A DNA stretch of 64,000 nucleotides. Source: Parcubacteria group bacterium (GTDB lineage Bacteria > Patescibacteriota > Patescibacteriia > UBA1558 > GWA2-36-10). Positions 3,158 to 48,805 of the stretch are shown piece after piece. How positions within the stretch are numbered: the stretch's first letter is position 1; the number at the start of each line of letters is the position of its first letter. Where the stretch lies: the NCBI GenBank assembly GCA_003104935.1, contig PQAE01000007.1, positions 47,221-111,220 of the forward strand, in the 5' to 3' direction. Below the pieces are notes generated by a model, which was not told where the DNA came from, made no database searches, and worked only from the letters and a program-made list of their open reading frames with translations. A program made the position numbers and the translations under genes.

Positions 3158-3183
3158 CCCGCTAATCCAGCGGGCTTTTTATA
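3158..3183. terminator. bidirectional rho-independent terminator between the M23 peptidase gene and the recombinase gene
   Basis: GCCCGCTAATCCAGCGGGC hairpin followed by TTTTTA; the A-run on the other side serves the convergent minus-strand gene. Confidence 0.5.
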
Positions 3184-4073
3184 TTACGCAAATACGAATG
3201 CGCTACACTAGTATAGCCCTGGGTGGTGCGAATACTGCCGTGACCTAATAATTTCTGGATGTAGCGAATATCCAAGCCACTTTCCAATAAATGCGTGGCA
3301 AAGCTGTGCCGCAAACTGTGGCAAGTGGCCGCTGCGTTAATACCCGCTTTGGTCATGGCAGTAGTAAAAATTTTTTGGGCGGTGCGCTGACTGATGTGCG
3401 AACGATTGCCGGCACCCGGAAAAATATATTCCGAATAATCCGCTCTTTGTTTACTATACGCTTCCCACAGATCAAGACTCTGTAGGCTTAATAAAGTATA
3501 GCGATCCTTGTGTCCTTTGGCGTCCTTAACCAGTAATAATTTTTCGGCGGGTCGCAAATGATCCGGCTTTAATTTTACTACCTCGGAGACCCGCAAGCCC
3601 GATCCGTAAAGCAAGGACAAAAGCAGACGATGTTTAATATTGATCGGAACATTTATAATTCTTATAATCTGCTCGCGCGCTAAAATTGTCGGCAAAAATT
3701 TTTCCCGCCGCGGCCGGCGGACATGAGTGAAGAGACGGCGATGCAAAAAATCATCGTAGTAAAAACGCAAGGCAGAAATAACCAAATTTAAAGAAGTGTT
3801 GGAATACCCACGAGACTTGAGATATAAAAGATAATTTTTTATATCTTGAGCGTTCACTTCTTTGGCCGATTTAGAGACAAAATCCAAAAACCTCTGATTA
3901 TGCCCCAAATAAGCCTTGACAGTCCGATGTGAAAAACCTCTAATAATGAGCTCCTGAACTAAAAAAGCCAAGGGATGAGCCCGAGGCACTAACTCAACTG
4001 TCTTTTTAGCTAAATCTGGACTATTGGTTAAGTCCGACTGACCATTATAGTCAGCAAAAAAATCGCTTTTCAT
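3162..4073 (-). CDS. tyrosine site-specific recombinase, XerC/XerD-like, encoded divergently from the cassette array (candidate array recombinase)
   Basis: Catalytic residues present: RVSEV (Arg), KDAKGHKDRYTLL (Lys hairpin), HSLRHSFATHLL (HxxR), LGHGSIRTTQGYTSV (Tyr). The Lys-to-HxxR spacing is ~55 aa, so the IntI-specific insertion appears absent. Confidence 0.8.
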   Translation of the reverse strand: MKSDFFADYNGQSDLTNSPDLAKKTVELVPRAHPLAFLVQELIIRGFSHRTVKAYLGHNQRFLDFVSKSAKEVNAQDIKNYLLYLKSRGYSNTSLNLVISALRFYYDDFLHRRLFTHVRRPRREKFLPTILAREQIIRIINVPINIKHRLLLSLLYGSGLRVSEVVKLKPDHLRPAEKLLLVKDAKGHKDRYTLLSLQSLDLWEAYSKQRADYSEYIFPGAGNRSHISQRTAQKIFTTAMTKAGINAAATCHSLRHSFATHLLESGLDIRYIQKLLGHGSIRTTQGYTSVAHSYLRNIKSPLD

Positions 4074-4871: not shown

Positions 4872-4970
4872 ATACTACAGTTTGGCTTTTTATTACGGCG
4901 CACAACACCGCGTATCTGGTTCGCGGACTAAATTATATTTTTATCTTAATAATAATTAAACATAAATTAT

Positions 4971-5376: not shown

Positions 5377-6519
5377 ATGTATCCAGAAAAATACAATCCG
5401 ACGCAAGAAGAAATTAACAAGGCTGAAAGCATAATGACAGACGAACAACGTCAAGCTTCTGAAATTCGGGCTGAAAATTACGAACAGGTGCAACCCCCGT
5501 GGAAAGATTTTACGGAAAAGATTGATGAAAATTTTGTCCGCAAAAGACCATCCCCTGAAGTTGTTAAAGCAATGAATCAGAGCCTAGAGGAATTGGGCCA
5601 GACATTTGAGGGGTCTGGTTTGAATTGGCACCTTGATGGAGCTTTAAATATATCCTTAATGAATGGCGCCGGCGAAAACCCTGAAAAATACATCGGCGAA
5701 CACAAGGATGTTGATATCTCCGTAGAGAAAGACGAACTTGAGGCATTAGAGGCGCAATTGCTTAAAAACGGTTATGGCTTATTTTTATCTCGCACAGGAG
5801 ATAAAATAAAAAATAAAATAATGAGGCGAGTTGGACATGGGGATTTCGCCGAATCAGATACAGAACATATGCTAATTGCCGCTATAGATGAAAACGGTAA
5901 AATCCGCCAAGATAAAGCCTTAAATTTTGTAGATATCCATATTATCCAAAGAGATGAGGCTGGGAAACCCTTGGGCGTATCAGGTACGCCCATCCCTGAA
6001 AAATGGGTTCAACCGCAGCCAATGGAATTTCATAGCAAACAAATAAATGTTTCACATCCTGGAAAAGTGCTTTATTTCAAGCTCCACCAAGATAGAAATT
6101 ATGATGTTACCGACGCGGAAAAATTAATTGAAACAGGTAAAATCATTGAAGAAGATATTGATGATATAGAAAAAGTATATAGGGATGAATTTAAAGCAAA
6201 TGTTGAGCGCGGTCGAAAAATTTTTGAGGGTTATACCAATCAACTCAAACCAGAAATGAGTGCGGACGAAATTTTTAATCTTATGCAAAGCCAGCCCGAA
6301 TTTCAAAAACGAGGAGATATGGCAGTGGGGTTAAAGAAATTAGCAGAAAAAATTGCAGAATCTGAAAATAAATCAGTTGATAATATATTATCTATTGCTA
6401 TCACCTTTTTTGGAATTGAAGAAAAGTATAATCAAAAGCGTCAAATATTAAACAGGATGAAACAAAGGGTAAAGGATATTAAAGAAATGGAACGAATTTG
6501 CGGAGAATTACAAAAATAA
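5377..6519 (+). CDS. hypothetical protein (cassette), possibly a nucleotidyltransferase fold
   Basis: 380-aa ORF; GSGLNWHLDGALNISLMNG...HKDVDISV resembles a GS-x(n)-D-x-D nucleotidyltransferase motif. This is a weak call. Confidence 0.45.
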   Translation: MYPEKYNPTQEEINKAESIMTDEQRQASEIRAENYEQVQPPWKDFTEKIDENFVRKRPSPEVVKAMNQSLEELGQTFEGSGLNWHLDGALNISLMNGAGENPEKYIGEHKDVDISVEKDELEALEAQLLKNGYGLFLSRTGDKIKNKIMRRVGHGDFAESDTEHMLIAAIDENGKIRQDKALNFVDIHIIQRDEAGKPLGVSGTPIPEKWVQPQPMEFHSKQINVSHPGKVLYFKLHQDRNYDVTDAEKLIETGKIIEEDIDDIEKVYRDEFKANVERGRKIFEGYTNQLKPEMSADEIFNLMQSQPEFQKRGDMAVGLKKLAEKIAESENKSVDNILSIAITFFGIEEKYNQKRQILNRMKQRVKDIKEMERICGELQK

Positions 6520-6622
6520 AATTTGCCTGAATAATGCCTGCTATCGCTCGCGAATTTATTTACATCAGCTAACACTGCGTATCTGGTTAATAGAATAAAT
6601 GATTTATTATTAATTTAAAAAT

Positions 6623-6979
6623 ATGGAAAAACTAATAGAATTAGCGCAGTCTCCATCAAGTCCTGGGATAGAGACCGTTGATAAAATGGTTATGAAATTA
6701 CATGTACCCTGTTCTGAAAAAAGTGTAACTGTGCAAATAAATCCATTTTTACAAGATTATGAAGAAAATGCAGACCAGCCAAATGTTCAAATAAGACAAA
6801 TGCAAATAACGAGTACTACATCAGATACAAAAACTCTTACTTTTGATTTTGAAAATAACTCTACTCATAACATAGATATAGATGGAGAAAATTATCAAAT
6901 AACCCTAATGAATATTGGAAAAGAAAAAACTCAAGATGGTGAATTTCCCGCTTTTGAATTTCTAGTCAAAAAAGATTAA
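6623..6979 (+). CDS. hypothetical protein (cassette; inside palindrome 6567-7106)
   Basis: 118-aa ORF between arm AGCTAACACTGCGTATCTGGTTAATAGAATAAATGAT and its complement, which is split at 6980-6999 / 7081-7106. Confidence 0.5.
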   Translation: MEKLIELAQSPSSPGIETVDKMVMKLHVPCSEKSVTVQINPFLQDYEENADQPNVQIRQMQITSTTSDTKTLTFDFENNSTHNIDIDGENYQITLMNIGKEKTQDGEFPAFEFLVKKD

Positions 6980-7125
6980 ATCATTTATTCTATTAACCCA
7001 AATCCCTCATTCCCCTTCGACTCGTTCCGGTGGTCACTTCGTGAAAGTTTACCACTTCCACTTGCTCAGGGTCATTCGGGACTTCAGATACGCTGACCTG
7101 TTAGGAGAAATTAAGTTTCAAAAAT

Positions 7126-7491
7126 ATGAATAAAAAATTTAAAAAAATGTTATTCCAAATGTATCGAAGCTTTCCTAATTCTTTTTGGTCAGACTCTGAA
7201 TTAAAAAAAATTGCTACCAAGGAAGCTATAGATGCTCTGGTCGAGGCTCATTATCTTTTTAAGATAAAAGTAGAATTTATTGAAAAAGGAAAGATCAAGG
7301 TGGACGGAGGCACATATATGAATACTGAAAACAAGGCTCTTCATAATCCCGGTTTTAAAGATTGTTACGGACTTGGACCAAACTCAATAAACATAATATA
7401 CGCTCATAGACTACAAATTCTTACTTATTGGATTATTGCACTGACAGTATTTACAACGGTTTTAACAATTTTCACAATTTTTGAAACTTAA
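7126..7491 (+). CDS. hypothetical protein (cassette), C-terminal transmembrane segment
   Basis: 121-aa ORF; hydrophobic C-terminus ILTYWIIALTVFTTVLTIFTIF; flanked by GTTAGGAGA / TCGCCCAAC. Confidence 0.5.
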   Translation: MNKKFKKMLFQMYRSFPNSFWSDSELKKIATKEAIDALVEAHYLFKIKVEFIEKGKIKVDGGTYMNTENKALHNPGFKDCYGLGPNSINIIYAHRLQILTYWIIALTVFTTVLTIFTIFET

Positions 7492-7547
7492 CATCGCCCA
7501 ACACCGGATATCCGAGGATCGAGCTAGAATAAAATTATTAAAAAAAT

Positions 7548-8090
7548 ATGAAAAAGATAATAAAATTTTTTAAAAAGCCATCCACTTTAGTAATAATCGT
7601 ACTTCTAGTTACTATATTCGTTTTATCTTTAAAAAACTCCGATTTAAAATATTCACGTCTTTACGAAGTGGAGACTATTCCTGATATAAATCTTACAAAT
7701 TCGTTATATAATTATTCTAATGATAATTATAGTGCGGGCTCTATTAGCGGATTTGTTGCATTTTATGATAAAGACAGCCAGCCAAAGGGATTAAAACAAT
7801 ATTATATTATTGGGCCATTAAATAAATTAGATGAAAATTTAAATCGAATATTTTCTCTTGAAGAAATAGTTAAAATGGATTATTTACCTCCAACAAGTAT
7901 CAATAAGTACGAGCTCAGAGAAACCAGCGAATCATATCAAATGTTGACACTAGAAGATGAAACTGGAAATATGTTTTTTATAAACAAAAATTCAGATGAA
8001 GTTACTATGAGGGATGTAGGTGGTGATAATACTAGATTAATTACCAACCAATCAGATTATAAAAATTTTATAATTAACCTTTTAAAATAA
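7548..8090 (+). CDS. hypothetical membrane-anchored protein (cassette; inside palindrome 7496-8212)
   Basis: 180-aa ORF with an N-terminal transmembrane helix LVIIVLLVTIFVLSL. Confidence 0.5.
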   Translation: MKKIIKFFKKPSTLVIIVLLVTIFVLSLKNSDLKYSRLYEVETIPDINLTNSLYNYSNDNYSAGSISGFVAFYDKDSQPKGLKQYYIIGPLNKLDENLNRIFSLEEIVKMDYLPPTSINKYELRETSESYQMLTLEDETGNMFFINKNSDEVTMRDVGGDNTRLITNQSDYKNFIINLLK

Positions 8091-8239
8091 TTTTATTCTT
8101 TACGCTCGCTCCTCTACATCCCTTCGCCTCCTAATATGATGTTGGCTTTTAAAAGCCAAATATTATATCATATTAGTAGGCTCGGGACGTCGGATATCCT
8201 GGCCTGTTAGGCGAAATTTACTCATCTTTTTATTAAAAT

Positions 8240-8752
8240 ATGCCAATTTACTTTTCAGTTGATCGTAATAAAACCTTACAAAAAGGAACAGAGATTGCTT
8301 TAATTCAGCACAATGATATTAGTCCAGTAGAGCTACAAAATTATATAAATACGCTGTTTCCAGATGGAGTAACGAATCACGGTGAAAGATATATGTTGCA
8401 ACCATGTCCGGCAAATCAAGTTAATTCCGTAATTGAACTGATTTTTGAATATGAAAGACGGAATAATTTCATAAGCTGCCCTTCTAGAATGCAATCTGTA
8501 TTTGCCTTTGATAATCTTGAATCAGCAAAAAAATTTCGCGAAATATACGGGAACAATCAAGGCGCTATAGTAAAAATTGACGCAATCTCTGCTTTCAAAG
8601 CTGATATGAATTTATTAACTTTAAAAGATTCATTATTACAACTGTCTTATAATGCTCATAAATATTGGAAAGGTGAAGCCTCTGATAGTCCATTTTGGGA
8701 ACATCTATTGATTCCGCCAGTTAAAGTAATTGATATAATAAAAGATGAGTAA
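8240..8752 (+). CDS. hypothetical protein (cassette)
   Basis: 170-aa ORF in the array, bounded by GTTAGGCGA (8206) and CTCGCCCAAC (8755-8764). Confidence 0.5.
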   Translation: MPIYFSVDRNKTLQKGTEIALIQHNDISPVELQNYINTLFPDGVTNHGERYMLQPCPANQVNSVIELIFEYERRNNFISCPSRMQSVFAFDNLESAKKFREIYGNNQGAIVKIDAISAFKADMNLLTLKDSLLQLSYNAHKYWKGEASDSPFWEHLLIPPVKVIDIIKDE

Positions 8753-8841
8753 ACCTCGCCCAACACCGGATATCCGAGGAGCGAGCTAGAATAAAATTAT
8801 TAAATAAAAGTAATATGCTTCATAAATAATAAATACAAAAT

Positions 8842-9066
8842 ATGGATATCAAAACAACACTTTACATTATAGAAAAAAGACGTGGTAATAATTACGCAAA
8901 AATGATTGATATGGTTGCGTTCGGACTAACGAATGGTGGTACAAAAACCGCTTTAATATTGGAAGAAACAGCTCAAGCCCTAGAAAAAGCCCAAACCAAC
9001 CCAACTAAAGAAAATTGGGAAAATTTAAAAAAATCACTTATTAATAATCCGCCAAGAGATATTTAA
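8842..9066 (+). CDS. hypothetical small protein (cassette; inside palindrome 8758-9192)
   Basis: 74-aa ORF; the flanking arms are near-identical to those around 7548-8090. Confidence 0.45.
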   Translation: MDIKTTLYIIEKRRGNNYAKMIDMVAFGLTNGGTKTALILEETAQALEKAQTNPTKENWENLKKSLINNPPRDI

Positions 9067-9209
9067 TACTTTTATTCCTTGACGCTCACTCCTCTACATC
9101 CCTTCGCCTCCTAATATGATGTTGGCTTTAAAAAGCCAAATATTATATCATATTAGTAGGCTCGGGACGTCGGATATCCTGAACCGTTAGCTGAAATATT
9201 TTAAATTTA

Positions 9210-9470
9210 GTGCCACAGATCATGTTTAATTATAAAGAAAAAATTGGAGAAGATTTAAAGAAAGAGGCGCGAGCCCTCGGCCTTAGTGAAGAAGGTTGGT
9301 ACGAACATAAAGGAACAGTTCGTGAAGTATTCAGAGAAGCCGCCGTTCAGACGCGAGTAAGAGAAGCAAAAAGAGCGCGTCGAGAAAATAGATTGTGGAT
9401 CTTCGCTGTAATCTCCGCTTTAAATGCTCTTTTTAGTGCTGCGGCCGCATGGCTCGCTGTGCTAAAATAA
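9210..9470 (+). CDS. hypothetical small protein (cassette)
   Basis: 86-aa ORF flanked by a 22-bp inverted repeat GTTAGCTGAAATATTTTAAATT / AATTTAAAATACATCGCCCAAC. Confidence 0.45.
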   Translation: MPQIMFNYKEKIGEDLKKEARALGLSEEGWYEHKGTVREVFREAAVQTRVREAKRARRENRLWIFAVISALNALFSAAAAWLAVLK

Positions 9471-9588
9471 AATTTAAAATACATCGCCCAACACCGCGTA
9501 TGCGCTTAGAGAAATACCCCTATTTGACAAGGTTTTTAATCTATGATAATGTGTGTAATACAAAGTATTACAATTAATATATAAATAT

Positions 9589-9804
9589 ATGCGACAAGTA
9601 ATAAATATCTCCCTGCCTGATACTATGGCTAAAACAGTTAAAAAAGCTGTTAAAACTGGTGACTATTCCTCTACCAGCGAATTTTTTCGTCATTTAATAA
9701 GAGACTGGCAAGAAAATAAGCTAATGACTGAATTAAGTGAGAGTAGATTAGAACTAGCTAGTGGAAAAGGAATGGTTTTAAAATCCTTAAAAGATTTGCG
9801 ATAA
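9589..9804 (+). CDS. ribbon-helix-helix antitoxin (ParD/CopG-like)
   Basis: 71 aa; 10 bp upstream of a RelE/ParE toxin gene; N-terminal RHH-like segment ISLPDTMAKTVKKAV. Confidence 0.6.
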   Translation: MRQVINISLPDTMAKTVKKAVKTGDYSSTSEFFRHLIRDWQENKLMTELSESRLELASGKGMVLKSLKDLR

Positions 9805-9814
9805 TCCATTTTCT

Positions 9815-10075
9815 ATGGAAATTATTTATAGCTCAAAATTCGCTAGAGAGTATAGAAGGCTGCCAAAGGATGTGAAAGCTCTAGCTGAAACACAAGAAGC
9901 TATTTTTCGTAAAGATCCTTATGATCCGAGGCTAAAAACCCACAAGCTAAAAGGAAAGTTTGATGGGTTTTTATCTTTTTCTATTGGCTATAAATATAGG
10001 ATAATATTTGAATTCGCCAAAGGTAGAAAAACGGTATATTTTCACATAGTAGGAGATCATGATATTTATCAATAG
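9815..10075 (+). CDS. type II toxin-antitoxin system RelE/ParE family toxin
   Basis: 86 aa; YKYRIIFEF...VYFHIVGDHDIY is a typical RelE/ParE C-terminus. Confidence 0.7.
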   Translation: MEIIYSSKFAREYRRLPKDVKALAETQEAIFRKDPYDPRLKTHKLKGKFDGFLSFSIGYKYRIIFEFAKGRKTVYFHIVGDHDIYQ

Positions 10076-28072: not shown

Positions 28073-29038
28073 ATGGAAATCAACAAACTCACTAGTCGCG
28101 CCATCCTAACCGCTGTCCAACAAGCGACTAATATTTTAGTTATCGCTCATAAAAAACCGGATGGTGATACTCTGGGTTCCAACCTAGCCTTTACCAAATA
28201 TCTGCTTAGTGTCGGTAAAAAATTTACCAGCTTTTGCCTACACCCGGCACCATCCCACCTAGCCTTTCTACCTAATAGCCATCTGATCAGTAATGATCAC
28301 CTCACCTTTAGCCAAACTTTTGACCTGGTTATTTTGCTGGATTCCAGTAATTTAGAATATGCCGGCGTTGACAAGCTCATGACCGCACTCCGGCCGGGTT
28401 ATAAAATAATTAATATTGACCACCATGTATCCAATACTATGTTTGGCGATATTAATCTGGTGATCTATGAAGCCTCTTCTACCGCCGAGGTGGTCTACCG
28501 TCTTTTTAAAGACTGGGACATAGACTGGAGTGCGGGTATCGCTTCTTGCCTGGCCTGCGGCATGATCACCGACACCGGCGGATTTAAAAATCCTGCTACC
28601 AACTATATTACACTGCTGGCCGCTTCCGATTTAAAAAGCAAAGGAGCAAATATCCATCAGATTACCAAACAAGCTCTAGGTAGTACAAAGCTCAATAATC
28701 TCCGTTTGTGGGGACGGGCTCTAGAGCGGCTCAGGGACGTGCCACACTATAATCTGATTTATACTTGGCTGACTGAACAGGATTTTACAGAATGCGCTAC
28801 GGATGAATCGGCCGTGGACGGACTGTCAAACTTTTTGCATATTATCAAGGAGGGAAAAATAATTATGGTTCTGCGCCAAAGCAAGGTCGATACCATCAAG
28901 GGGTCACTGCGCACTACCAGTAATATTGACCTGACAAAAATAGCGGAAATTTTCGGTGGCGGCGGACACAAAAAGGCCGCCGGTTTCAGCTTGTCAGGCC
29001 GGCTAGAATGTAATGATGGTCAGTTAATTATCAAATAG
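28073..29038 (+). CDS. nrnA: DHH/DHHA1 bifunctional oligoribonuclease / pAp phosphatase
   Basis: NIDHHVSNTMFGD (DHH) and GGGHKKAAGF (DHHA1 GGGH). Confidence 0.75.
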   Translation: MEINKLTSRAILTAVQQATNILVIAHKKPDGDTLGSNLAFTKYLLSVGKKFTSFCLHPAPSHLAFLPNSHLISNDHLTFSQTFDLVILLDSSNLEYAGVDKLMTALRPGYKIINIDHHVSNTMFGDINLVIYEASSTAEVVYRLFKDWDIDWSAGIASCLACGMITDTGGFKNPATNYITLLAASDLKSKGANIHQITKQALGSTKLNNLRLWGRALERLRDVPHYNLIYTWLTEQDFTECATDESAVDGLSNFLHIIKEGKIIMVLRQSKVDTIKGSLRTTSNIDLTKIAEIFGGGGHKKAAGFSLSGRLECNDGQLIIK

Positions 29039-29953
29039 GAAAATCTTACTTAATAATTCTTTCCTTAATTCCCAAGTATTGGCGTGTTTCAGCACACCGA
29101 GGTACGACGGTGCGTTATTTTTATTTACTAAGCGTAAAATTCTTCTCTTTGTCTTAGTTCGTAAAACTCTATAATGCGGCAAGGTCACATAGCCCAAAAA
29201 ATCTATACCTTGACTGACTTTTCTGATACTTATTTTCCCTGGGTGTATATCTAATCGTAATTGATCCTTTAAAAATGTGTTTAATTCTTTCAAAATATTT
29301 GCTAAATAACCTTTATCTTTATGCAAAATTATAAAATCGTCACAATAACGAATATAAAATTTCTGTTTTAACCCGTGTTTTACAAATTGATCTAATTCAT
29401 TTAGATAAATATTGCCAAAAAGCTGACTAGTTACATTGCCTAAGGGTAGTCCCTTATTATCTGCCGAAGAAAAACTATTAATTATTTTCTTAATTAACCA
29501 CATAACATCGACTTCTTCCACTCTATTCTCTAACAAAGCTAATAGTATCTTATGATCTATATTATTGAAAAACTTCTTGATATCACATTTTAAAGCATAG
29601 ATCTTTTGGCTATAATTCAGGCTCGCTCTAAGCACAAAATTTCCTAATCGTTTAACCCCCTTGTGCGTGCCTTTTCCTATCCGACATGAATAAGAATCAT
29701 ATATAAATTGCTTGTTAAAAATATGATATAATATTCTATATAAAGCTTGATGAACCACTCGATCTCGCACCCCTGCTTTATGGATATGCCTGAGCTTGGG
29801 GTCACAAACATAAAAGGCCTGATAAGGTGCGTGATTATAAGTCTTGTCCACTAATTCTTGGTGAAGTTGAAAAATATTATCTTCAAGATTAAACTCAAAT
29901 TCCTGTGTTTCCACCTTTCTGGTCTTACCCCTTTTAAATTCACGCCAGGCCAA
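29024..29953 (-). CDS. diversity-generating retroelement reverse transcriptase (DGR-1); N-terminus lacks an ATG in the conserved frame
   Basis: RT motifs YALKCDIKKFFNNIDH, GLPLGNVTSQLFGNIYLNELD (the DGR-type xGxxxSQ rather than QGxxxSP) and YIRYCDDFIIL; ~50% identical to the RT at 45002-45988. The ORF-track start is TTG. Confidence 0.85.
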   Translation of the reverse strand: MAWREFKRGKTRKVETQEFEFNLEDNIFQLHQELVDKTYNHAPYQAFYVCDPKLRHIHKAGVRDRVVHQALYRILYHIFNKQFIYDSYSCRIGKGTHKGVKRLGNFVLRASLNYSQKIYALKCDIKKFFNNIDHKILLALLENRVEEVDVMWLIKKIINSFSSADNKGLPLGNVTSQLFGNIYLNELDQFVKHGLKQKFYIRYCDDFIILHKDKGYLANILKELNTFLKDQLRLDIHPGKISIRKVSQGIDFLGYVTLPHYRVLRTKTKRRILRLVNKNNAPSYLGVLKHANTWELRKELLSKIFLFDN

Positions 29954-30027
29954 AAATAAATTATCTAAAGAAATAACTTCATTAAAAAGACTATTATGAT
30001 TATACCCCCCCCCCTCATAAGATAGGT

Positions 30028-30369
30028 TTGCCTATTGTCCATGAGATTACTAATTTATACCGAGAATTATATATCACCCGCCACCAAATACCAAAGGCCG
30101 AACGCTATGGGATTTTTCAGAAAATAGAAAACACAGTATTAGACTGCCTAGAGATTGCCCTCACCGCGGCCTTGACCGAGAAAGACAAAAAATCAATATT
30201 ATTGGTGAGACTAAAAATAAAGATTGAAATCATACAAAAATTAGTAAGATTAATTAGAGAATTAGAAATTATCTCGGAAAGAAAACATATTCTTTTTTCA
30301 CAAAAATCCATAACAATTTCTAAAATGACCAGTGGCTGGCTTAAGTATTTAAATAAAGAGCCTATCTAG
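30028..30369 (+). CDS. Avd-like four-helix-bundle protein (accessory variability determinant), divergent from the RT
   Basis: 113 aa; PKAERYGIFQKIENTVLDCLEIALTAA resembles the Avd / 23S-IVS four-helix-bundle family; paralogous to 46050-46364 at the protein level only. Confidence 0.6.
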   Translation: MPIVHEITNLYRELYITRHQIPKAERYGIFQKIENTVLDCLEIALTAALTEKDKKSILLVRLKIKIEIIQKLVRLIRELEIISERKHILFSQKSITISKMTSGWLKYLNKEPI

Positions 30370-30385
30370 GCCCTTTATTTTTTGT

Positions 30386-30511
30386 GGAAACTTCTGCGCG
30401 ACCCCGCAAGTTGTCGTTGGCGTTATCCGGATTGTACCAGTTGACGTTCAGCTTGCTGTTGTCGCTGTTCCAGTTCACGTTCGGCACGTTACCATTGCGG
30501 TTACGCGAACC
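30386..30511 (-). repeat. DGR-1 template repeat (TR1)
   Basis: 126 bp matching 30840-30965 with about 20 mismatches; every mismatch is a T on the plus strand, i.e. an A on the transcribed minus strand. Confidence 0.85.
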
Positions 30512-30836
30512 TATTTTTTGTTAAGTCCCATCCAAAAACGTTAGATTATATCTATATAACCCAACGCCCCGGCTCTTTGACCGGGCAATGTGTGTGGATC
30601 TTTAAATCCAACCAGAATTTAACAAGCAGTTTCCTTTACCCCGTTAGAGACTTATCTCTAATGGGGTATTTTTTGGCAAATCGCTACCGAGCTAAGCCCG
30701 ACCGATTATATTAGCCATATCTTTATTATACGAAAAGGCGCCGATGATGCCAAGCTTGGTATAGCTTGTTCACCGACGCCTTATGTTTTGTACTTTCTAC
30801 CCCAACCCCGAGGGTTAAAGTAAAAAGTTACAAGGC

Positions 30837-31523
30837 TTAGGAAACTACTGCGCGACCCCGCAAGCCGTCGTCGGCGCTATCCGGATGGCACCAGTCGACG
30901 CACAGCTTGCCGAGGCCGCTGCTCCAGTACACGCACGGCACGCTACCATTGCGGTGACGCGAACCGGCGCAGAGCGTGGTGTTCTGGATGTCCAGATGCT
31001 TGTTGGTCTCCGAGTAGTATTTCAACTCGTAGACCAGTCTTTCCAGCAAAGTGATGCTGGAGATTTTTCGCTTCTGGAGATCATTGGCCGAGAGATTCTT
31101 CAGCTCTTCGTCTGCTTCCACGCGGTCGCGGACACGGATGGCGTAGGACGCCTCGGTGTTGCGATCGTTGTTAGGCACATCTTTGTCCAGATCATTTGTG
31201 TATGACCAAGACTTGAAGGCCTTGGAGCAGGCTTGGAAAGCCTGATTGATGGTCAGACCCTGGGGGATGAAGAGGACTCTGGTGAAGTCTTCTTGCTCTT
31301 CGGGAATGGAGACATCCGAGAAGTCCACGGACAGACGGAAGTACTTGCGGTAGAACTCCTGCCATTCCTCTTGGATGGAGTTGATGGCGAAGGGGTTTTG
31401 GCGCTGAGCAAAGAGATCCAGCTCCCGCGGCGTGATGACTCCGCTCTTGATCTTGAGCAAAATATCGCTCATGGTACCAAGCACAGTGCCCGGCACCATA
31501 CCGACCGTCGCCTGCTTAGGCAT
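30837..31523 (-). CDS. DGR-1 target (variable) protein with a C-terminal C-type-lectin/FGE-like variable region
   Basis: C-terminus ...CAGSRHRNGSVPCVYWSSGLGKLCVDWCHPDSADDGLRGRAVVS is encoded by VR1 at 30840-30965, up to the stop at 30837. Confidence 0.8.
   Translation of the reverse strand: MPKQATVGMVPGTVLGTMSDILLKIKSGVITPRELDLFAQRQNPFAINSIQEEWQEFYRKYFRLSVDFSDVSIPEEQEDFTRVLFIPQGLTINQAFQACSKAFKSWSYTNDLDKDVPNNDRNTEASYAIRVRDRVEADEELKNLSANDLQKRKISSITLLERLVYELKYYSETNKHLDIQNTTLCAGSRHRNGSVPCVYWSSGLGKLCVDWCHPDSADDGLRGRAVVS
30840..30965 (-). repeat. DGR-1 variable repeat (VR1)
   Basis: Covers the 3' end of the target ORF; differs from TR1 only at TR adenine positions; GC-rich IMH-like 3' end CTTGCGGGGTCGCGCAG. 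Confidence 0.85.
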
Positions 31524-31627
31524 GATCAGTTTCCTTTATTTTGAGGTACAATTCTAGGTATTTCCTAGAACATATAATAATATCATATATTCACGATTTT
31601 GTCAATAGTTGCTAGTCCCCTATTATT

Positions 31628-45001: not shown

Positions 45002-45988
45002 CTACAAAGGAAAGTCTAAAAGGCCTTTTAACTTCATAGTATTACCGTAACCAAATAGCCCTAAATACGATTGTTTAGTAAATTCATTGTAGTTTTTTAA
45101 TTTGAGCCTGGTCAACATTCTTTTTTTACTTGTTGTCCTCAAAACACGATGATCTGTAAAATGTACCCACCCTAAAAAATCTATACCGGAATACAGGGTT
45201 TTAATAAAAACCTTATCGGGATGTAATTGTAATCGCAAATCATTATTTAAAAAATGTTTTATCACGCCCAAAATATTTTCTAACCATTTTTTGTCCTTAG
45301 ATAATATAACAAAATCATCGGCATATCGAATATAATATTTGGCTTTTAGCTTATGTTTTACAAACTGGTCAAATGTATTCATATAAACATTGACTAGTAG
45401 TTGTGATGTCAAATTTCCTAAAGGTAAACCTTTGTTATTGATGTGAAAACTATCAATCACTCTATTTAATAGCCATAAAATATTTTCATCAGCTATATAC
45501 TGACTTAAAATATCTATTAATATACTATGATCAATATTGGCAAAAAATTTCTTAATATCTCCTTTCAACACCCAAGCTGTTTTGGTATGATTTTGAGATG
45601 CTCGATAAGCAAAATTACAAAACTTGTTTATGGCCTTGTGAGTCCCTTTACCTAAACGGCAGGAATAAGAATCAGCAATAAATGTCGTGTCAAAAAAAGG
45701 ATACAAAACCCTATAGATAGCGTGATGTAATAGTCTATCGCGAACACTGGCCTTATGAATGTTTCTTGGTTTAGGGTCAGAAATATTGAAAGCCTGATAA
45801 TCCGAATGCCAATAAGTCTTATTTTTCAAATCACTATGTAGAGCTATAATATTACTCATTAAATCTAATTCAAATTCTTGGACATCCCGACGACTTCTTT
45901 TGCCTTTGATAAACTCCTGCCAGGCTAAAAGCAAATTTTCCAAAGAAATGATATAATCATAACTATAATTAAATTTAATTTTGCTCAT
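45002..45988 (-). CDS. diversity-generating retroelement reverse transcriptase (DGR-2)
   Basis: GLPLGNLTSQLLVNVYMNTFD (xGxxxSQ), YIRYADDFVIL; ATG start preceded by a G10-TATAAT element. Confidence 0.85.
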   Translation of the reverse strand: MSKIKFNYSYDYIISLENLLLAWQEFIKGKRSRRDVQEFELDLMSNIIALHSDLKNKTYWHSDYQAFNISDPKPRNIHKASVRDRLLHHAIYRVLYPFFDTTFIADSYSCRLGKGTHKAINKFCNFAYRASQNHTKTAWVLKGDIKKFFANIDHSILIDILSQYIADENILWLLNRVIDSFHINNKGLPLGNLTSQLLVNVYMNTFDQFVKHKLKAKYYIRYADDFVILSKDKKWLENILGVIKHFLNNDLRLQLHPDKVFIKTLYSGIDFLGWVHFTDHRVLRTTSKKRMLTRLKLKNYNEFTKQSYLGLFGYGNTMKLKGLLDFPL

Positions 45989-46049
45989 ATGACAGATTAT
46001 ACCCCCCCCCCGTCTATTACCAGTACTTCAAAAACTAAAAAGTGTTTAT

Positions 46050-46364
46050 TTGCTATGGTATAGCTATTACCAAGTTTTGCCAAAAAATCATCGCTATTCT
46101 CTGGGAATAAAAGTTGATAATTTACTGACGGAAACAATAGAATCAGTGGCTACGGCTATTTTCTTGGTACCCAACGACAAATTACCATACGTGCGACGAG
46201 GCATTCAGAAATTAGACACCTTAAAAATATTTCTAATGATTCTCTGGGAAACGAAATCTTTAGACGATAATAAATATATCGCCTTGTCAGTAAAAATAGA
46301 CGAGGTTGGCAAAATGTTGGGTGGCTGGCAAGGACAGATATTAAAACAAAACTCTCCTAAATAA
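46050..46364 (+). CDS. Avd-like four-helix-bundle protein, divergent from RT-2
   Basis: 104 aa; PKNHRYSLGIKVDNLLTETIESVATA; homologous to 30028-30369. Confidence 0.6.
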   Translation: MLWYSYYQVLPKNHRYSLGIKVDNLLTETIESVATAIFLVPNDKLPYVRRGIQKLDTLKIFLMILWETKSLDDNKYIALSVKIDEVGKMLGGWQGQILKQNSPK

Positions 46365-46385
46365 ATTAGGAGAGAAACGAAGTAT

Positions 46386-46507
46386 TTGCAGACCGCCGCG
46401 GGGTTGTTGTCGTTGAAGTTGTTGTCCAGGTAGTTGTAGTTCCAGTTCCACTGCTGGCCATTCCAGTAGAGATAGCGGACGTACAAGTTGCCGTTGGAGT
46501 TGCGGTA
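46386..46507 (-). repeat. DGR-2 template repeat (TR2)
   Basis: 122 bp matching 46929-47050; all 14 mismatches are T on the plus strand (A on the minus strand). Confidence 0.85.
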
Positions 46508-46818
46508 TTATATATAATGCCGTCTATAGCACTGCCCATAGACCCGTTCGACTCCATCCCGCGATGCGGGACTTCGCTCAGGGTCATCCCGAATTTATTG
46601 AAGGATGAATACTCGCCGGGCTGTATCGTATTTGTGATCTAAAATCACTTAGCACTATATACCAAGTATCTTCATTTTTTGAGTTTCTAGGCATCTCTCT
46701 ATCTTAAACCGCAGTCTAAGCTATTCTCAATGCATAGATACTGGATTCGGCCGTAAAAAACCTTGATCTTTTACTGATTAGCCTAGTACCAATTATACTT
46801 TATCATAAATTGAAGAAG

Positions 46819-46855
46819 CCTCATACATTACTGTATGAGGCTTCTCGTTTTTGTA
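46819..46855 (+). terminator. plus-strand rho-independent terminator
   Basis: GAAGCCTCATACATTACTGTATGAGGCTTC followed by TCGTTTTTG. Confidence 0.55.
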
Positions 46856-46924
46856 TAGCTACAAAGTCTAAGGTCAAAGGACTTAAGGGTAAGTCCTAAG
46901 AACCAAAGCACTAAGTGCTATATG

Positions 46925-47503
46925 TTACTTGCAGACCGCCGCGGGGTTGCCGTCGTTGAAGTAGCTGCCCAGGTAGTAGTAGTTCCAGTTCCACTGCTGG
47001 CCATCCCAGTAGAGATAGCGGACGCACAAGTCGCCGTAGGAGCTGCGGTAGATGGTACCCCAGAAGTAGGTGTACTTTCCTTTCCACTCCTCGGGAATGA
47101 ACTGGGGATTTTTCAGATACCAATCCAAGAGATTGGCATTGAAGACCGGCTGGCCCTGGAGCTCCTTACGGAGATCGTGGCCTATGATCCAGCGACCGTC
47201 CTTCTTCCTCTCGGAGAGGTAGAGGCTGATCTTGGTGGGATCAAACTCCAACTTCCCACCACGGATGTGCTCCTCGACCTTCCAGCCGTCAGGCACGAAG
47301 GGGTTGGCGTCGAGGTCGACGATGTGTTTGGTGACGACGATCTGGGCCAGGCCGTGAAGCAGGGCTTTGATGTCGATGAGTTGAGGGTACTGACCCAGCA
47401 AAGTGATTTCTGCCGGAGTAAAATCCTTCGCCTCCAGAGCGTTCATCAGCTGATGAGTCTGACCCTCAGAATAAGAAGACATGTCTTCTCTCCTTTTTGG
47501 CAC
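46925..47503 (-). CDS. DGR-2 target (variable) protein with a Tyr/Trp-rich C-terminus
   Basis: C-terminus ...CVRYLYWDGQQWNWNYYYLGSYFNDGNPAAVCK is encoded by VR2. Confidence 0.75.
   Translation of the reverse strand: MPKRREDMSSYSEGQTHQLMNALEAKDFTPAEITLLGQYPQLIDIKALLHGLAQIVVTKHIVDLDANPFVPDGWKVEEHIRGGKLEFDPTKISLYLSERKKDGRWIIGHDLRKELQGQPVFNANLLDWYLKNPQFIPEEWKGKYTYFWGTIYRSSYGDLCVRYLYWDGQQWNWNYYYLGSYFNDGNPAAVCK
46929..47050 (-). repeat. DGR-2 variable repeat (VR2)
   Basis: Covers the 3' end of the target ORF and differs from TR2 only at TR adenine positions. Confidence 0.85.
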
Positions 47504-47856
47504 ATGTGCCTTGATTCGCCAGAGGGCTCCATTTGGTAGCCATAGCTACAAAAGTCCAATCTTCTTTACCGTCACCCTGAATTTATTTCAGGGTCTGGTA
47601 TGTGAGACTCTGAAACAAGTTCAGAGTGACCATCATTTATTAGGCTTTTGTAGCTATGGCTAGCCAAAATATGCAAGTAAGATATTAATGTACTAACATA
47701 TAATGTTAGCATATTTTATGAATTTTGTCAATAGTAGGTAAATACCCTATATAAAGCCTGTTACTCTGGAGTCTGTAGGACGATAGAGTCTATATGTATA
47801 TAATCTTATGGATTCTATCGCCGCGCTAAGCGCGGCTCCAGAATGACAAATAAAAA

Positions 47857-48025: not shown

Positions 48026-48805
48026 ATGTCTGGAATAAAAGAATATACAAAATATCTCAAAGCCGGTGGTCTAAAAAAACAAACTGTCGAAAATTACCTC
48101 TGGCACACCAGTAAATTTTTGAATTGGCTGGGCACTAATGACTTAAATACGGAAAAAATTAAATCTTATCAGAAAGACTTAGTCCGCTCCGCTTATAGTC
48201 CGGCTACCGTCAACCTTCATCTCATTAGTATCAATAAATATTTAGACTATCGCGGGCTAAAATCAAAGCTTCATCTTGTGGCCGAGCCAACTAAAGAACT
48301 TGATTATCTAAATAAACGCCAGCTGTCTCTCTTTGTGGAGGCCGTGCCCAATACTTCGAAGTTTATTCATCTGCGCGACCGGGCGCTGCTGGAAATACTC
48401 TATACTACCGGGCTTAAAGTGGGGCAGATTATTTTACTAAAAAAGCATCATATTGATACCGTCAAGCAAGAAATAATTTTAGATAATAAAAAACAACTCC
48501 TCCTGCCACCTCTAGCCTGGTCGGCTCTGAAAAAATATCTGGACAGAAGAGTTGACGATATAGATTATTTATTTGTCAATCTGGATAGAGCACAAAAGGG
48601 TAAAGAAATGATGCTATCTATCCGCTCAGTCGAGAGAATTATTGAAAAATACGGCCGCCAGATCGGCTTGGAGGTAACACCGCAAATTTTACGCAATACT
48701 CTGGCCAAAAATCTAAAAAATGACGGCGCCGACCGCGGTCAATTACAAGCACAGCTGCATTTTCATACCAAACTGGGTGCGGAAAATTATCTCAAGAGAA
48801 TTTAA
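48026..48805 (+). CDS. tyrosine recombinase-like protein (small, possibly degenerate active site)
   Basis: 259 aa; N-terminal SAM-like core-binding region; RDRALLEILYTTGLKVGQ (Arg), QILRNTLA (R present, H replaced by Q), ...ENYLKRI (Tyr). Confidence 0.55.
   Translation: MSGIKEYTKYLKAGGLKKQTVENYLWHTSKFLNWLGTNDLNTEKIKSYQKDLVRSAYSPATVNLHLISINKYLDYRGLKSKLHLVAEPTKELDYLNKRQLSLFVEAVPNTSKFIHLRDRALLEILYTTGLKVGQIILLKKHHIDTVKQEIILDNKKQLLLPPLAWSALKKYLDRRVDDIDYLFVNLDRAQKGKEMMLSIRSVERIIEKYGRQIGLEVTPQILRNTLAKNLKNDGADRGQLQAQLHFHTKLGAENYLKRI

What the first reader, a model, noticed from the sequence alone, without database searches (positions are those of the whole stretch)
29024..31523. Complete diversity-generating retroelement DGR-1 (RT, divergent Avd, TR1, VR1 in a C-type-lectin-like target)
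TR1 (30386-30511) and VR1 (30840-30965) are 126 bp each and differ at about 20 positions. Every difference is a T in TR on the plus strand, which is an A on the minus strand shared by the RT and the target. This is the adenine-specific mutagenesis signature. The RT carries the DGR-type xGxxxSQ motif (LGNVTSQ). VR1 encodes the C-terminal ~41 residues of the 228-aa target (CAGSRHRNGSVPCVYWSSG...), a CLec/FGE-like ligand-binding fold.
Basis: seen in the sequence. Interest (0 to 1): 0.7.

Follow-up and report, generated by a model that had tools for sequence, protein, structure and literature searches.

The report
Candidate-phyla DGR with repeat-tract switch
This is a real diversity-generating retroelement of the type common in tiny "candidate phyla" bacteria, and two features stand out: a slippery run of ten G's at the start of its reverse transcriptase gene, which as assembled puts that gene out of frame, and a rearranged template RNA.

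Summary
TR1 (30386-30511) and VR1 (30840-30965) are 126 nt and differ at 20 positions. All 20 are TR adenines on the minus strand, at codon positions 1-2 (chance 2e-13). RT, Avd and a 228-aa target are present, and the target's model has a C-type-lectin/FGE-like fold. The layout, target(VR)-spacer-TR-(avd inverted)-RT, is the published "B3" architecture typical of candidate-phyla (CPR) DGRs. So the element itself is an ordinary new member, in a Parcubacteria MAG.

Two things go beyond the finding.

1. A G10 tract (30005-30014) lies where the avd and RT reading frames overlap head to head.
   - As assembled, RT1 and the long form of Avd1 are both out of frame; G11 or G8 restores both.
   - 98 of 141 related loci carry a simple-sequence repeat at this spot, against 0 of 74 phage-type DGRs.
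   - Most are out of frame, and near-identical strains differ in repeat length. This looks like a phase-variation switch.

2. The VR-TR spacer encodes a conserved structured RNA.
   - A leader motif pairs with the 3' edge of TR.
   - An adjacent 12-bp helix shows strong covariation.
   - Together they suggest a circularly permuted version of the Bordetella-phage DGR RNA.

Population-level VR variation could not be tested for this locus.

The parts
29024..30004 (-). RT1 reading frame downstream of the G tract. It starts with the conserved N-terminal motif YNHNSLFNEVISLDNLFLAWREF, carries LGNVTSQ and YCDD, and ends at the stop codon.
   Evidence: ORF list; Pfam RVT_1 E=1.6e-22; 52% identical to RT2; 47-64% identical to RTs of 160 Patescibacteria loci.
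30005..30014 (.). G10 (minus strand) / C10 (plus strand) homopolymer. It lies inside the head-to-head overlap of the RT1 and long-Avd1 reading frames, encoding Gly-Gly-Gly in RT and Pro-Pro-Pro in Avd. Proposed slipped-strand switch.
   Evidence: With G11 or G8 both ORFs are full length (RT 338-339 aa, Avd 123-124 aa). With G10 both stop after 25 and 9 codons. This and the C10 tract of DGR-2 are the only G/C runs of 8 or more in the window. Repeats occur at this position in 98/141 related loci and 0/74 distant DGR loci.
30015..30042 (-). 5' segment of RT1: ATG (30042-30040) MDNRQTYLMR, upstream of the tract and out of frame by one base as assembled.
   Evidence: Translation. The same M(D/Q/N)NR... 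N-terminus is in frame in relatives L004, L011, L020, L030, L032, L041 and L075.
29996..30369 (+). Avd1. The long form starts at ATG 29996 (MIIPPPPHKIG...) and crosses the C tract, out of frame as assembled. The short form starts at TTG 30028 (113 aa) and covers the whole Avd profile.
   Evidence: Pfam bAvd E=2e-10; NCBIfam DivGenRetAVD E=3.8e-12, residues 12-117 matching profile 1-104. Avd is on the strand opposite RT in 147/147 related loci. An in-frame Met lies before PPP in all in-frame loci.
30354..30377 (-). Stem-loop UAAAGGGCCUAGAUAGGCUCUUUA followed by a U-rich tail, 8 nt after TR1 and back to back with the avd stop codon. Likely the end of the TR RNA and/or the counterpart of the Avd-binding stem-loop.
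   Evidence: A hairpin plus T-tail starts a median 11 nt after TR in 79/88 related loci. Stem-loops just downstream of TR are described as Avd-binding in BPP-1 and 207 other DGRs (bioRxiv 10.1101/2023.10.23.563531).
30386..30511 (-). TR1, the template repeat (126 nt, 37 A). Its last six bases, GUUUCC (30391-30386), are the partner of the leader motif.
30518..30634 (-). Conserved structured leader core: GGAAAC (30634-30629), linker UGC, helix 5' strand (30625-30615), enclosed domain (30614-30530), helix 3' strand (30529-30518, ending 6 nt before TR1).
   Evidence: 31-sequence alignment A6. The 12-bp helix is 96% paired, with covariation score 0.77 against 0.26 in shuffles (0/500) and 0.11-0.22 when slid. 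Leader:TR-3' pairing has permutation p<=0.0005. Coordinates.
30637..30753 (-). 5' part of the predicted TR RNA: promoter-like TTGGCA-17-TATAAT (30753-30725), conserved hairpin GGCUAAUAUAAUCGG...AGCGAUUUGCC (30716-30675), and a locus-specific 14-bp hairpin (30668-30637).
   Evidence: Promoter and terminator scan; conserved motifs in A6; the predicted RNA 30718-30350 folds with z=-6.3.
30804..30816 (-). Small GC hairpin AACCCUCGGGGUU, 23 nt downstream of VR1. It could be the target terminator or a DGR cruciform; its status is unclear.
   Evidence: Similar hairpins follow VR in 37-63 of 88-96 related loci, no more often than they follow TR.
30840..30965 (-). VR1, the variable repeat: codons 187-228 of the target.
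30837..31523 (-). Target gene (228 aa, C3F02_02940): N-terminal helices plus a C-type-lectin/FGE-like domain whose C-terminal 42 residues are VR1. No signal peptide or membrane segment is apparent on reading the sequence.
31577..31605 (-). Promoter-like site for the target (TTGACA-17-TG-TATTAT). A 78% identical copy lies upstream of the DGR-2 target.
   Evidence: (repeat D6).

Best explanation
DGR-1 is a genuine chromosomal diversity-generating retroelement of the CPR-type 'B3' architecture. It sits in a Parcubacteria (Patescibacteria) genome between a DHH/DHHA1 phosphoesterase gene and GIY-YIG and clpP genes.

Shown:
- a TR/VR pair with purely adenine-specific differences;
- a DGR-type RT;
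- an Avd homologue on the opposite strand;
- a target of a Patescibacteria-wide family whose C-terminal 42 residues (VR) belong to a predicted C-type-lectin/FGE-like domain.

Inferred mechanism: an RNA of about 370 nt is transcribed from the VR-TR spacer, in the order leader, TR, terminal stem-loop. RT with Avd reverse-transcribes TR with random insertion opposite A. The cDNA replaces VR1, rewriting up to 37 A-templated positions in the last 42 residues of the target's predicted lectin-like domain, where known DGR variable proteins carry their ligand-binding site.

Two further inferences come from comparative evidence.

(1) Expression of RT, and of the long form of Avd, depends on the length of a G/C tract shared by their overlapping 5' ends. 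In this assembly the tract (G10) puts both out of frame, so the element is probably in an OFF phase. The absence of any non-A mismatch suggests the last homing event was recent.

(2) The priming and stop elements that lie downstream of TR in the Bordetella-phage DGR RNA lie upstream of TR here. GGAAAC pairs with the TR 3' end GUUUCC and is followed directly by one strand of a long-range helix. The other strand of that helix sits just 5' of TR. This is a circular permutation of the phage RNA.

My confidence: it is a DGR, about 0.95; the repeat-tract switch, about 0.65; the leader:TR pairing is real, about 0.85; that pairing primes cDNA synthesis, about 0.5.
For: - **TR/VR.** 20/20 mismatches fall at TR adenines, codon positions 1-2, P=1.9e-13.
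- **Proteins.** RT: RVT_1 plus LGNVTSQ and YCDD. Avd.
- **Architecture.** Avd is inverted in 147/147 related loci. VR lies upstream of TR in 96/96. 1716 of 1789 TR/VR mismatches are at A. This matches B3 = TR-(avd)-RT, which makes up 90% of the CPR set in Wu et al. (PMC5758913).
- **Activity in the clade.** L011 vs L092 show 8 differences in 3252 nt, all inside VR. L026 vs L119/L120 show 13 differences, all inside VR.
- **Tract.** G11 or G8 restores both ORFs. Repeats sit at the junction in 98/141 loci, against about 20 in the other ~880 kb and 0/74 distant DGRs. Other repeat types, (GT)n, (CT)n, (GA)n and (CTGG)n, occupy the same spot. 8 of 38 non-redundant type-I loci are in frame. L097 has (GT)7 against (GT)6 in L099. 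L034 and L143 differ in the (CT)n tract, with avd in frame only in L143.
- **RNA.** Helix covariation. Leader:TR-3' duplex with compensatory changes, permutation p<=0.0005. No conserved structure downstream of TR beyond one stem-loop. BPP-1 element order from bioRxiv 10.1101/2023.10.23.563531.
Against: - No near-identical strain of this locus was found (best RT match 64%), so ongoing VR1 diversification is not shown here.
- As assembled, RT1 lacks an in-frame start before its conserved N-terminus. The element could therefore be dead or mis-assembled rather than phase-OFF.
- No length polymorphism was seen for poly-G tracts; the three groups of near-identical contigs had equal lengths.
- Avd1 has a possible bypass start (TTG 30028) after the tract.
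- The matching frame offsets of RT and avd follow mathematically from each ATG being the reverse complement of a His codon in the other gene, so they are not independent evidence.
- Only 10/87 spacers have a good sigma-70-like promoter.
- The priming role of the leader is inferred by analogy only. A snap-back of the terminal hairpin could prime instead.
- Target fold: Foldseek against PDB gave no significant hit and no Pfam or NCBIfam family matched.
Confidence: 0.85

Rival explanations
1. The G10 tract is a sequencing or assembly error. The true length would be G11, DGR-1 would be constitutively intact, and the tract would be ordinary coding sequence (Gly3-4 / Pro3-4).
For: One extra G restores both ORFs. 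Homopolymers of 9-12 G are error-prone. An error would shift both overlapping genes together, so joint frame loss does not separate error from switch. Poly-G lengths were identical within near-identical contig groups.
Against: About 30 of 38 non-redundant type-I loci from many independent assemblies are out of frame, close to the two-thirds expected for random phase and far above a plausible consensus error rate. The out-of-frame G11 state is reproduced in two contigs from different metagenome records (L086/L087). Di- and tetranucleotide repeats, which are not error-prone in the same way, occupy the same position in other loci and differ between near-identical strains. Maintaining a run of 9-12 identical bases at one position in 76 loci is not expected for ordinary coding sequence.
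Confidence: 0.2
2. DGR-1 is a decaying, non-functional remnant. The RT and Avd frames are broken for good, and the TR/VR pattern is a fossil of past activity.
For: RT1 has no in-frame canonical start before its conserved N-terminal helix. Wu et al. caution against inferring that a DGR found in a genome sequence is functional, because inactivated DGRs are common (PMC5758913).
Against: There are no non-A mismatches in 126 nt and no indels between TR and VR. There are no other stops or frameshifts in RT, Avd or target. All RNA elements conserved in the clade are intact. The only defect sits exactly in the conserved repeat tract, where most relatives show the same kind of offset.
Confidence: 0.1
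3. The poly-G tract works through its sequence and not through frame switching. It could be an unusually long Shine-Dalgarno sequence, a promoter-spacer element, or a site of RNA-polymerase slippage that yields a fixed low fraction of in-frame mRNA.
For: In the RT2-like subclade the tract lies 13 nt before the RT ATG and is followed by TAnnnT and exactly 7 nt. That is compatible with a -10 box and leaderless mRNA, or with SD-like pairing. Random phase at the DNA level is also what one expects if slippage during transcription makes the DNA phase irrelevant.
Against: In the RT1-like subclade, which includes this locus, the tract lies inside the ORFs about 10 codons after the start. Unrelated repeat units, (GT)n, (CT)n, (GA)n and (CTGG)n, replace poly-G at the same place. 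This points to slippage-proneness as the selected property, not G-richness. L034 and L143 differ in avd frame through repeat length.
Confidence: 0.15
4. The 126-nt repeat is an ordinary duplication or gene-conversion tract unrelated to retrohoming.
For: None beyond the existence of a direct repeat.
Against: All 20 differences are at adenines of one copy, P=1.9e-13. An RT and Avd are adjacent. The same pattern appears in 96 related loci. The non-DGR repeat D1 in the same window shows no such bias.
Confidence: 0.01

Closest known systems
CPR/DPANN DGRs with 'B3' architecture, TR-(avd)-RT (Wu et al. 2018, PMC5758913; Paul et al. 2017, not held in the library)
   Same: The order and orientation of all parts are the same: the target with a C-terminal VR lies upstream, avd is inverted between TR and RT, and the host is a Patescibacteria genome. 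Wu et al. state that B3 makes up 90% of their CPR set. All 147 related loci with a detectable Avd share the layout.
   Different: Nothing in the parts list differs. The repeat tract at the avd/RT junction and the structured leader upstream of TR were not found in any paper searched or read in the held library.
Bordetella phage BPP-1 DGR (mtd-avd-TR-brt) and its DGR RNA (bioRxiv 10.1101/2023.10.23.563531)
   Same: Both show adenine-specific TR-to-VR transfer, an RT with IGxxxSQ-type palm residues, an Avd, and a VR at the C-terminus of a CLec-fold protein. Both have a stem-loop directly after TR. In both, a primer-strand:TR-3' duplex lies immediately next to a duplex whose other strand sits just 5' of TR.
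   Different: Here avd is on the other strand and overlaps the RT start. The primer-like strand, the stop-helix strand and the enclosed domain lie upstream of TR, not in a downstream spacer. No conserved structure is found in the 170 nt downstream of TR apart from one hairpin. TR is probably a separate short transcript.
DGR variable proteins of known structure: TvpA (2y3c), Mtd (1yu0), TaqVP (5vf4); and the FGE/SUMF2 and Lcl C-terminal (DUF1566-like) folds
   Different: Sequence identity is 6-14%. No Pfam or NCBIfam match and no significant Foldseek hit. The protein is small (228 aa), has a family-specific N-terminal helical part and no obvious export signal. Several family members stand alone, far from any RT.
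Simple-sequence-repeat contingency loci (poly-G/C tracts in Neisseria, Campylobacter, Bordetella fim, and others)
   Same: A homopolymer of 8-12 G/C, or a di- or tetranucleotide repeat, lies in the first codons or promoter of a gene. In-frame and out-of-frame states are mixed across isolates. Repeat number differs between near-identical strains.
   Different: Here the tract is shared by two divergent, overlapping genes and controls a mutagenesis machine, not a surface antigen or restriction-modification enzyme. Switching itself has not been observed for the poly-G version.

Membership tests
Diversity-generating retroelement (DGR) | TR/VR near-repeat whose differences are confined to adenines of the TR | tested here: met
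   20/20 mismatches at TR adenines, P=1.9e-13.
Diversity-generating retroelement (DGR) | Adjacent reverse transcriptase of the DGR type ([LIV]GxxxSQ palm motif, YxDD) | tested here: met
   RVT_1 E=1.6e-22; LGNVTSQ at residues 171-177; YCDD at 203-206. The motif corresponds to bRT I181/G182/Q187. NCBIfam returned no DGR-RT family; the best hit was group II intron RT, below its cut-off. As assembled, the frame is interrupted at the G10 tract.
Diversity-generating retroelement (DGR) | VR inside a protein-coding gene, with substitutions at codon positions 1-2 (AAY codons in TR) | tested here: met
   VR is codons 187-228 of the 228-aa ORF. All 20 changes are at codon positions 1-2.
Diversity-generating retroelement (DGR) | Variable region displayed on a C-type-lectin (or Ig) fold | tested here: met
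Diversity-generating retroelement (DGR) | Accessory variability determinant (Avd) | tested here: met
   Pfam bAvd scores 41.4 bits against a cut-off of 40. NCBIfam DivGenRetAVD gives E=3.8e-12 but 46 bits against a cut-off of 80, so this is a divergent member.
Diversity-generating retroelement (DGR) | IMH/IMH* at the 3' end of VR/TR and a GC-rich inverted repeat after VR | tested here: inconclusive
   The GC-rich segment CTTGCGGGGTCGCGC is identical in TR and VR. Only a 5-bp hairpin lies 23 nt after VR1. In relatives, hairpins are no more frequent after VR than after TR.
Diversity-generating retroelement (DGR) | Ongoing mutagenic homing (VR variation within a population at A-templated sites only) | not testable with these tools
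   No reads are available and no near-identical contig was found. Two related loci show it: L011 vs L092, and L026 vs L119/L120, differ only inside VR.
CPR 'B3' DGR architecture (Wu et al. 2018) | Core order TR-(avd on reverse strand)-RT | tested here: met
   definition in PMC5758913.
SSR-mediated phase-variable (contingency) locus | Hypermutable simple-sequence repeat within the 5' coding region or promoter, conserved in position | tested here: met
   G10 lies 8 codons after the RT1 ATG. 98/141 related loci carry a repeat at this place, about 250-fold enriched over the flanks; 0/74 distant DGRs do.
SSR-mediated phase-variable (contingency) locus | Repeat-number polymorphism between closely related genomes that changes the reading frame | tested here: inconclusive
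   Met for (GT)n (L097/L099) and (CT)n (L034/L143, avd in frame vs out of frame). Not seen for poly-G: three groups of near-identical contigs have equal lengths. Not testable for this locus.
SSR-mediated phase-variable (contingency) locus | Reversible ON/OFF change of expression or phenotype | not testable with these tools
   Needs read-level or experimental data.
BPP-1-type DGR RNA (TR followed by spacer Sp carrying the primer, stop strand and RT-binding stem-loop) | Stem-loop directly downstream of TR (Avd-binding element) | tested here: met
   A hairpin lies 8 nt after TR1, and 79/88 relatives have one. Binding itself was not tested.
BPP-1-type DGR RNA (TR followed by spacer Sp carrying the primer, stop strand and RT-binding stem-loop) | Primer strand and stop-duplex strand located downstream of TR | tested here: not met
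   No conserved pairs were found in the 170 nt downstream of TR in 31 loci. The complementary motif and helix strand are upstream of TR.

The most novel reading that the evidence does not exclude
In most chromosomal DGRs of Patescibacteria, including this one, the mutagenesis machinery itself is under a stochastic genetic switch. The avd and RT genes overlap head to head across a hypermutable repeat (poly-G here; (GT)n, (CT)n, (GA)n or (CTGG)n elsewhere). Slippage in that repeat turns one or both genes on or off, so only a subpopulation diversifies its target at any time. In the same elements the template RNA is a circular permutation of the Bordetella-phage DGR RNA, with the priming and stop elements in a conserved structured leader upstream of TR. 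Neither feature appeared in any paper I could search or read.
Probability: 0.55. Interest if true: 0.8.

Novelty: new member of a known kind. Interest (0 to 1): 0.6.

Why it matters
As a DGR the locus is routine. DGRs are about 80% of all reverse transcriptases in CPR bacteria (PMC8632793), and this layout is the standard one there. It adds one more member and a fold assignment for a large, unannotated Patescibacteria target family.

The two clade-wide features found while checking it would matter if confirmed. To my knowledge, how DGR activity is regulated is still largely open. A repeat-tract switch on avd and RT would be a simple, testable answer for the largest reservoir of DGRs, and it would be a hypermutator gated by a contingency locus. 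It also has a practical consequence: gene callers will mis-call these RT and Avd genes, and many 'broken' CPR DGRs may be phase-OFF rather than dead.

A permuted DGR RNA would show that the cis-priming architecture solved for the Bordetella phage tolerates rearrangement. It would explain why avd can sit inverted right after TR. It would also define the RNA needed to reconstitute or engineer these compact systems.

Tried and rejected
- **Exact-protein look-ups.** The target and Avd returned no contigs, so the source contig could not be revisited.
- **Near-identical strains.** The single metagenome scan with RT1 found no near-identical strain (best 64%), so VR1 population variation is untested.
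- **Fold searches.** Foldseek against PDB gave nothing significant (E>=1.3). The afdb50 library was unavailable.
- **Family searches.** Pfam and NCBIfam found no family for either target. Rfam at gathering threshold found only two tRNAs in the window.
- **Third repeat pair.** The pair 8091-8217/9071-9197 was checked as a possible third TR/VR and rejected: 96% identical, differences not A-specific, intergenic.
- **RNA downstream of TR.** A consensus structure for the 170 nt downstream of TR (antisense to avd) gave no pairs. The idea that an Sp-like module is hidden in antisense avd was dropped.
- **Promoters.** A sigma-70-type promoter in the VR-TR spacer was found in only 10/87 loci, so the TR RNA 5' end stays uncertain.
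- **Frame concordance.** I first took the 37/41 match between RT and avd frame offsets as independent proof of co-phasing. I then saw that it follows arithmetically from each ATG being the reverse complement of an in-frame His codon of the other gene, and downgraded it.
- **RT2-like subclade.** There the avd start is unresolved: the ATG about 37 nt before the tract is in frame in only 2/22 loci. The TAnnnT hexamer after the tract may be a -10 box or simply avd coding sequence.
- **Literature.** Four full-text searches combining DGR, CPR or Patescibacteria terms with homopolymer, phase-variation, poly-G, simple-sequence-repeat and contingency-locus terms found no paper linking them. Paul et al. 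2017 could not be read.
- **One script timed out** and was rerun on a smaller scale.

Full report
**1. The observation**

On the minus strand, 30386-30511 and 30840-30965 align without gaps over 126 nt and have 20 mismatches. All 20 are A in the first copy: 12 A>G, 5 A>T, 3 A>C. That copy has 37 A's. The chance that 20 random differences all hit A is 1.9e-13. Similarity ends abruptly on both sides.

The second copy is codons 187-228 of the 228-aa ORF 30837..31523(-). Every change is at codon position 1 or 2, and the homology ends at the stop codon. The first copy is therefore the TR and the second the VR. A whole-window repeat search found this pair and a second pair of the same kind at 46383-46507/46926-47050. 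It also found a third 127-nt repeat (8091/9071) that is not A-biased and is not a DGR.

**2. The proteins**

*RT.* ORF 29024..29953(-) is a reverse transcriptase (Pfam RVT_1, E=1.6e-22). It carries LGNVTSQ and YCDD. These positions correspond to the palm residues I181/G182/Q187 of the Bordetella-phage enzyme described in bioRxiv 10.1101/2023.10.23.563531.

*Avd.* ORF 30028..30369 on the plus strand is an Avd homologue. Pfam bAvd is just above its cut-off. NCBIfam DivGenRetAVD gives E=4e-12, below its cut-off.

*Target.* The target matches no Pfam or NCBIfam family. It has more than 340 homologues at 45-64% identity. All those that carry a source name are Patescibacteria, Parcubacteria or unclassified bacterial MAGs. 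They share a conserved scaffold and a hypervariable C-terminus. The exact protein is C3F02_02940 of a Parcubacteria MAG.

*Context.* The neighbours are housekeeping genes: DHH/DHHA1, GIY-YIG and ClpP. The element is therefore chromosomal.

**3. Architecture and relatives**

Scans with the RT retrieved 160 related loci from genome and metagenome collections.
- Avd is on the strand opposite RT, directly upstream of it, in 147 of 147 loci where it was detected.
- In the 96 loci with a detectable TR/VR pair, TR lies just upstream of the inverted avd (median gap 21.5 nt).
- VR always lies further upstream, with a median spacer of 324 nt.
- 1716 of 1789 mismatches are at TR adenines.

This is the 'B3' architecture, TR-(avd)-RT, which Wu et al. 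report for 90% of their CPR DGR set (PMC5758913). DGRs make up about 80% of RTs in CPR bacteria (PMC8632793). As a DGR, the locus is an ordinary new member.

Two sets of near-identical contigs from different data sets differ only inside VR. L011/L092 show 8 differences in 3252 nt. L026 vs L119/L120 show 13 differences in 2940 nt. The clade is therefore active in nature. No near-identical relative of this locus exists in the collections, so the same test could not be done here.

**4. The G tract**

The RT frame stays open upstream of the listed TTG start and encodes YNHNSLFNEVISLDNLF. This matches the conserved N-terminus of all relatives, yet it contains no start codon. Upstream lies a G10 run (C10 on the plus strand, 30005-30014), and beyond it an ATG (30042-30040) in another frame.

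With G11 or G8 the RT reads MDNRQTYLMRGGGYNHNSLF... for 338-339 aa. On the other strand an ATG at 29996 then gives MIIPPPPHKIGLPIVHE..., a 123-124-aa Avd. With G10 both terminate after 25 and 9 codons. The two genes therefore overlap head to head, and the tract lies in the shared part.

Comparative evidence:
- The two C10 tracts of DGR-1 and DGR-2 are the only G/C runs of 8 or more in the 64-kb window.
- In 152 non-redundant related loci, 98 of the 141 with enough upstream sequence carry a simple-sequence repeat in the 130 nt before the RT N-terminal motif: 76 poly-G, 13 (GT)n, 9 (GA/AG)n, 3 (CT)n and 2 tetranucleotide. About 20 such repeats occur in the remaining ~880 kb.
- None of 74 distant, phage-type DGR RT loci has one.
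- In the RT1-like subclade the RT start M(D/Q/N)NR... lies 23-36 nt before the tract.
- 8 of 38 non-redundant loci are in frame for both genes and the rest are out of frame. This does not differ from random phase.
- Repeat length differs between contigs that are otherwise identical. L097 has (GT)7 and L099 has (GT)6. L034 and L143 differ in the (CT)n tract, with avd in frame only in L143.

Different repeat units at one position, mixed phases and length polymorphism are the hallmarks of contingency loci. I conclude, at about 0.65, that the tract is a slipped-strand switch on the DGR machinery and that DGR-1 is OFF as assembled.

Caveats:
- No polymorphism was seen for poly-G itself.
- A homopolymer error would mimic the OFF state.
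- Avd1 has a TTG four codons after the tract that could serve as a bypass start.
- RNA-polymerase slippage could make the DNA phase partly irrelevant.
- In the RT2-like subclade (DGR-2) the RT ATG lies 13 nt after the tract, and only avd appears to cross it.

**5. The template RNA**

A hairpin with a U-rich tail begins a median 11 nt after TR in 79 of 88 loci. Here it is at 30377-30354, back to back with the avd stop. The next 170 nt, antisense to avd, show no conserved pairs in 31 loci.

The roughly 200 nt upstream of TR are conserved and structured.
- The predicted transcript 30718-30350 folds with z=-6.3.
- Leaders of 36 loci have a median z of -3.0 on the RT strand and -1.7 on the other strand.
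- An alignment of 31 leaders contains a 12-bp long-range helix that is 96% paired. Eleven of its 12 pairs show compensatory changes. Its covariation score is 0.77, against 0.26 for shuffles (0 of 500 as high) and 0.11-0.22 for slid controls.
- The 3' strand of this helix ends 6 nt before TR1 here.

A motif lies just 5' of the helix, separated from it by a short linker (UGC in this locus). It is GGAAAC here and AAAUGAAGA in the RT2-like subclade. It is complementary to the 3' edge of TR: GUUUCC here, at TR positions 121-126, and UCUUCAUUU just after TR in the other subclade. The two sides change together across loci. Examples are AAAUAAAGA:UCUUUAUUU, AAAUGAAGC:GCUUCAUUU, UGAGGAGAUA:UAUCUUCUCA and AGAAAAAGAA:UUCUUUUUCU. 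Pairing of a leader with its own TR edge beats pairing with the TR edges of other loci. Permutation p is <=0.0005 overall, 0.0005 within the RT1-like loci and 0.002 within the RT2-like loci.

In the Bordetella-phage RNA the element order is: stop strand', TR, Avd-binding stem-loop, primer strand, stop strand, thumb ring, RT-binding stem-loop. Here it is: primer-like strand, stop strand, enclosed domain, stop strand', TR, stem-loop. This is a circular permutation. The last A-mutated TR position (A119) lies just 5' of the proposed duplex, as the model requires. The pairing is well supported. Its priming role is inferred by analogy only.

**6. Verdict**

The caveat is that the RT, and the long form of Avd, are out of frame at a conserved repeat tract. 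The element is a new member of a known kind. The interest lies in two clade-wide features that I did not find described in the literature available to me. Paul et al. 2017 could not be read.

Noticed in passing
window 45002-47740: A second DGR with the same layout. RT2 is 45002..45988(-), Avd2 about 46050..46364(+), TR2 46383-46507, VR2 46926-47050, and the target 46925..47503(-, 192 aa). All TR2/VR2 mismatches are at TR adenines. RT2 is 52% identical to RT1, while the targets are unrelated by BLASTP. A C10 tract at 46002-46011 lies 13 nt before the RT2 ATG. The only avd-sense ATG before the tract is out of frame (it needs C9 or C12). The element sits between rpsO and a tyrosine recombinase gene (48026..48805).
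   Followed up: partly
window 31569-31614 and 47695-47740; 47503-47695: The two unrelated DGR target genes share a 46-nt promoter-like sequence (CTATTGACAAAAT...TATTAT, 78% identical). The DGR-2 copy lies about 190 nt upstream of its ORF. The intervening leader contains a long inverted repeat (GGCTAGCCATAGCTACAAAAG ... CTTTTGTAGCTATGGCTACC). It has no Rfam match at gathering threshold.
   Followed up: no
window 4000-10000 (repeats 8091-8217/9071-9197; 4887/6554/9473; 7490/8752): A low-GC island (31-38% against a window mean of 43%) of small ORFs lies next to a tyrosine recombinase gene (3162..4073). Its intergenic regions carry repeated 44-127-nt elements. The 127-nt pair is 96% identical, is not A-biased and contains an internal palindrome. 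This may be a mobile element or a cassette array.
   Followed up: partly
window 29024-31523 and 45002-47503: Both DGRs show a strong compositional split. RT and Avd are 31-36% GC, while the target genes outside VR are 54% GC, TR is 52-55% and VR is 59-67%. The window mean is 43%. The targets are more GC-rich than the genome, and the machinery is much more AT-rich.
   Followed up: no
L001 6001-6687; L002/L003 6001-6690: Close homologues of the DGR-1 target (54-60% identical, same C-terminal pattern) stand alone among housekeeping genes with no RT within 6 kb. Two paralogues lie on one contig. They may be remote targets of a DGR elsewhere in those genomes, or members that are no longer diversified.
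   Followed up: partly
window 30637-30668: A perfect 14-bp hairpin is inserted in the TR leader of this locus only; it is absent from 30 aligned relatives. On the plus strand it is followed by a T run, so it looks like a terminator for avd-sense transcription that would read antisense through TR.
   Followed up: no
L047, L100, L102, L103, L106, L114, L116, L127, L158 ((GT)n); L034, L143 ((CT)n); L046, L073, L067, L142, L153, L155, L159 ((GA)n); L083, L162 ((CTGG)n): At the place where most relatives have poly-G, other loci carry di- or tetranucleotide repeats of 14-40 nt. In avd sense they read as (ER)n or (TH)n peptides.
   Followed up: partly
record titles (e.g. L019, L026, L028, L036, L040): Several contigs carrying this Patescibacteria-type DGR are labelled 'uncultured Gammaproteobacteria bacterium' or 'Candidatus Saccharibacteria' in automatically binned MAG records. 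These are probably mis-binned or mis-labelled.
   Followed up: no
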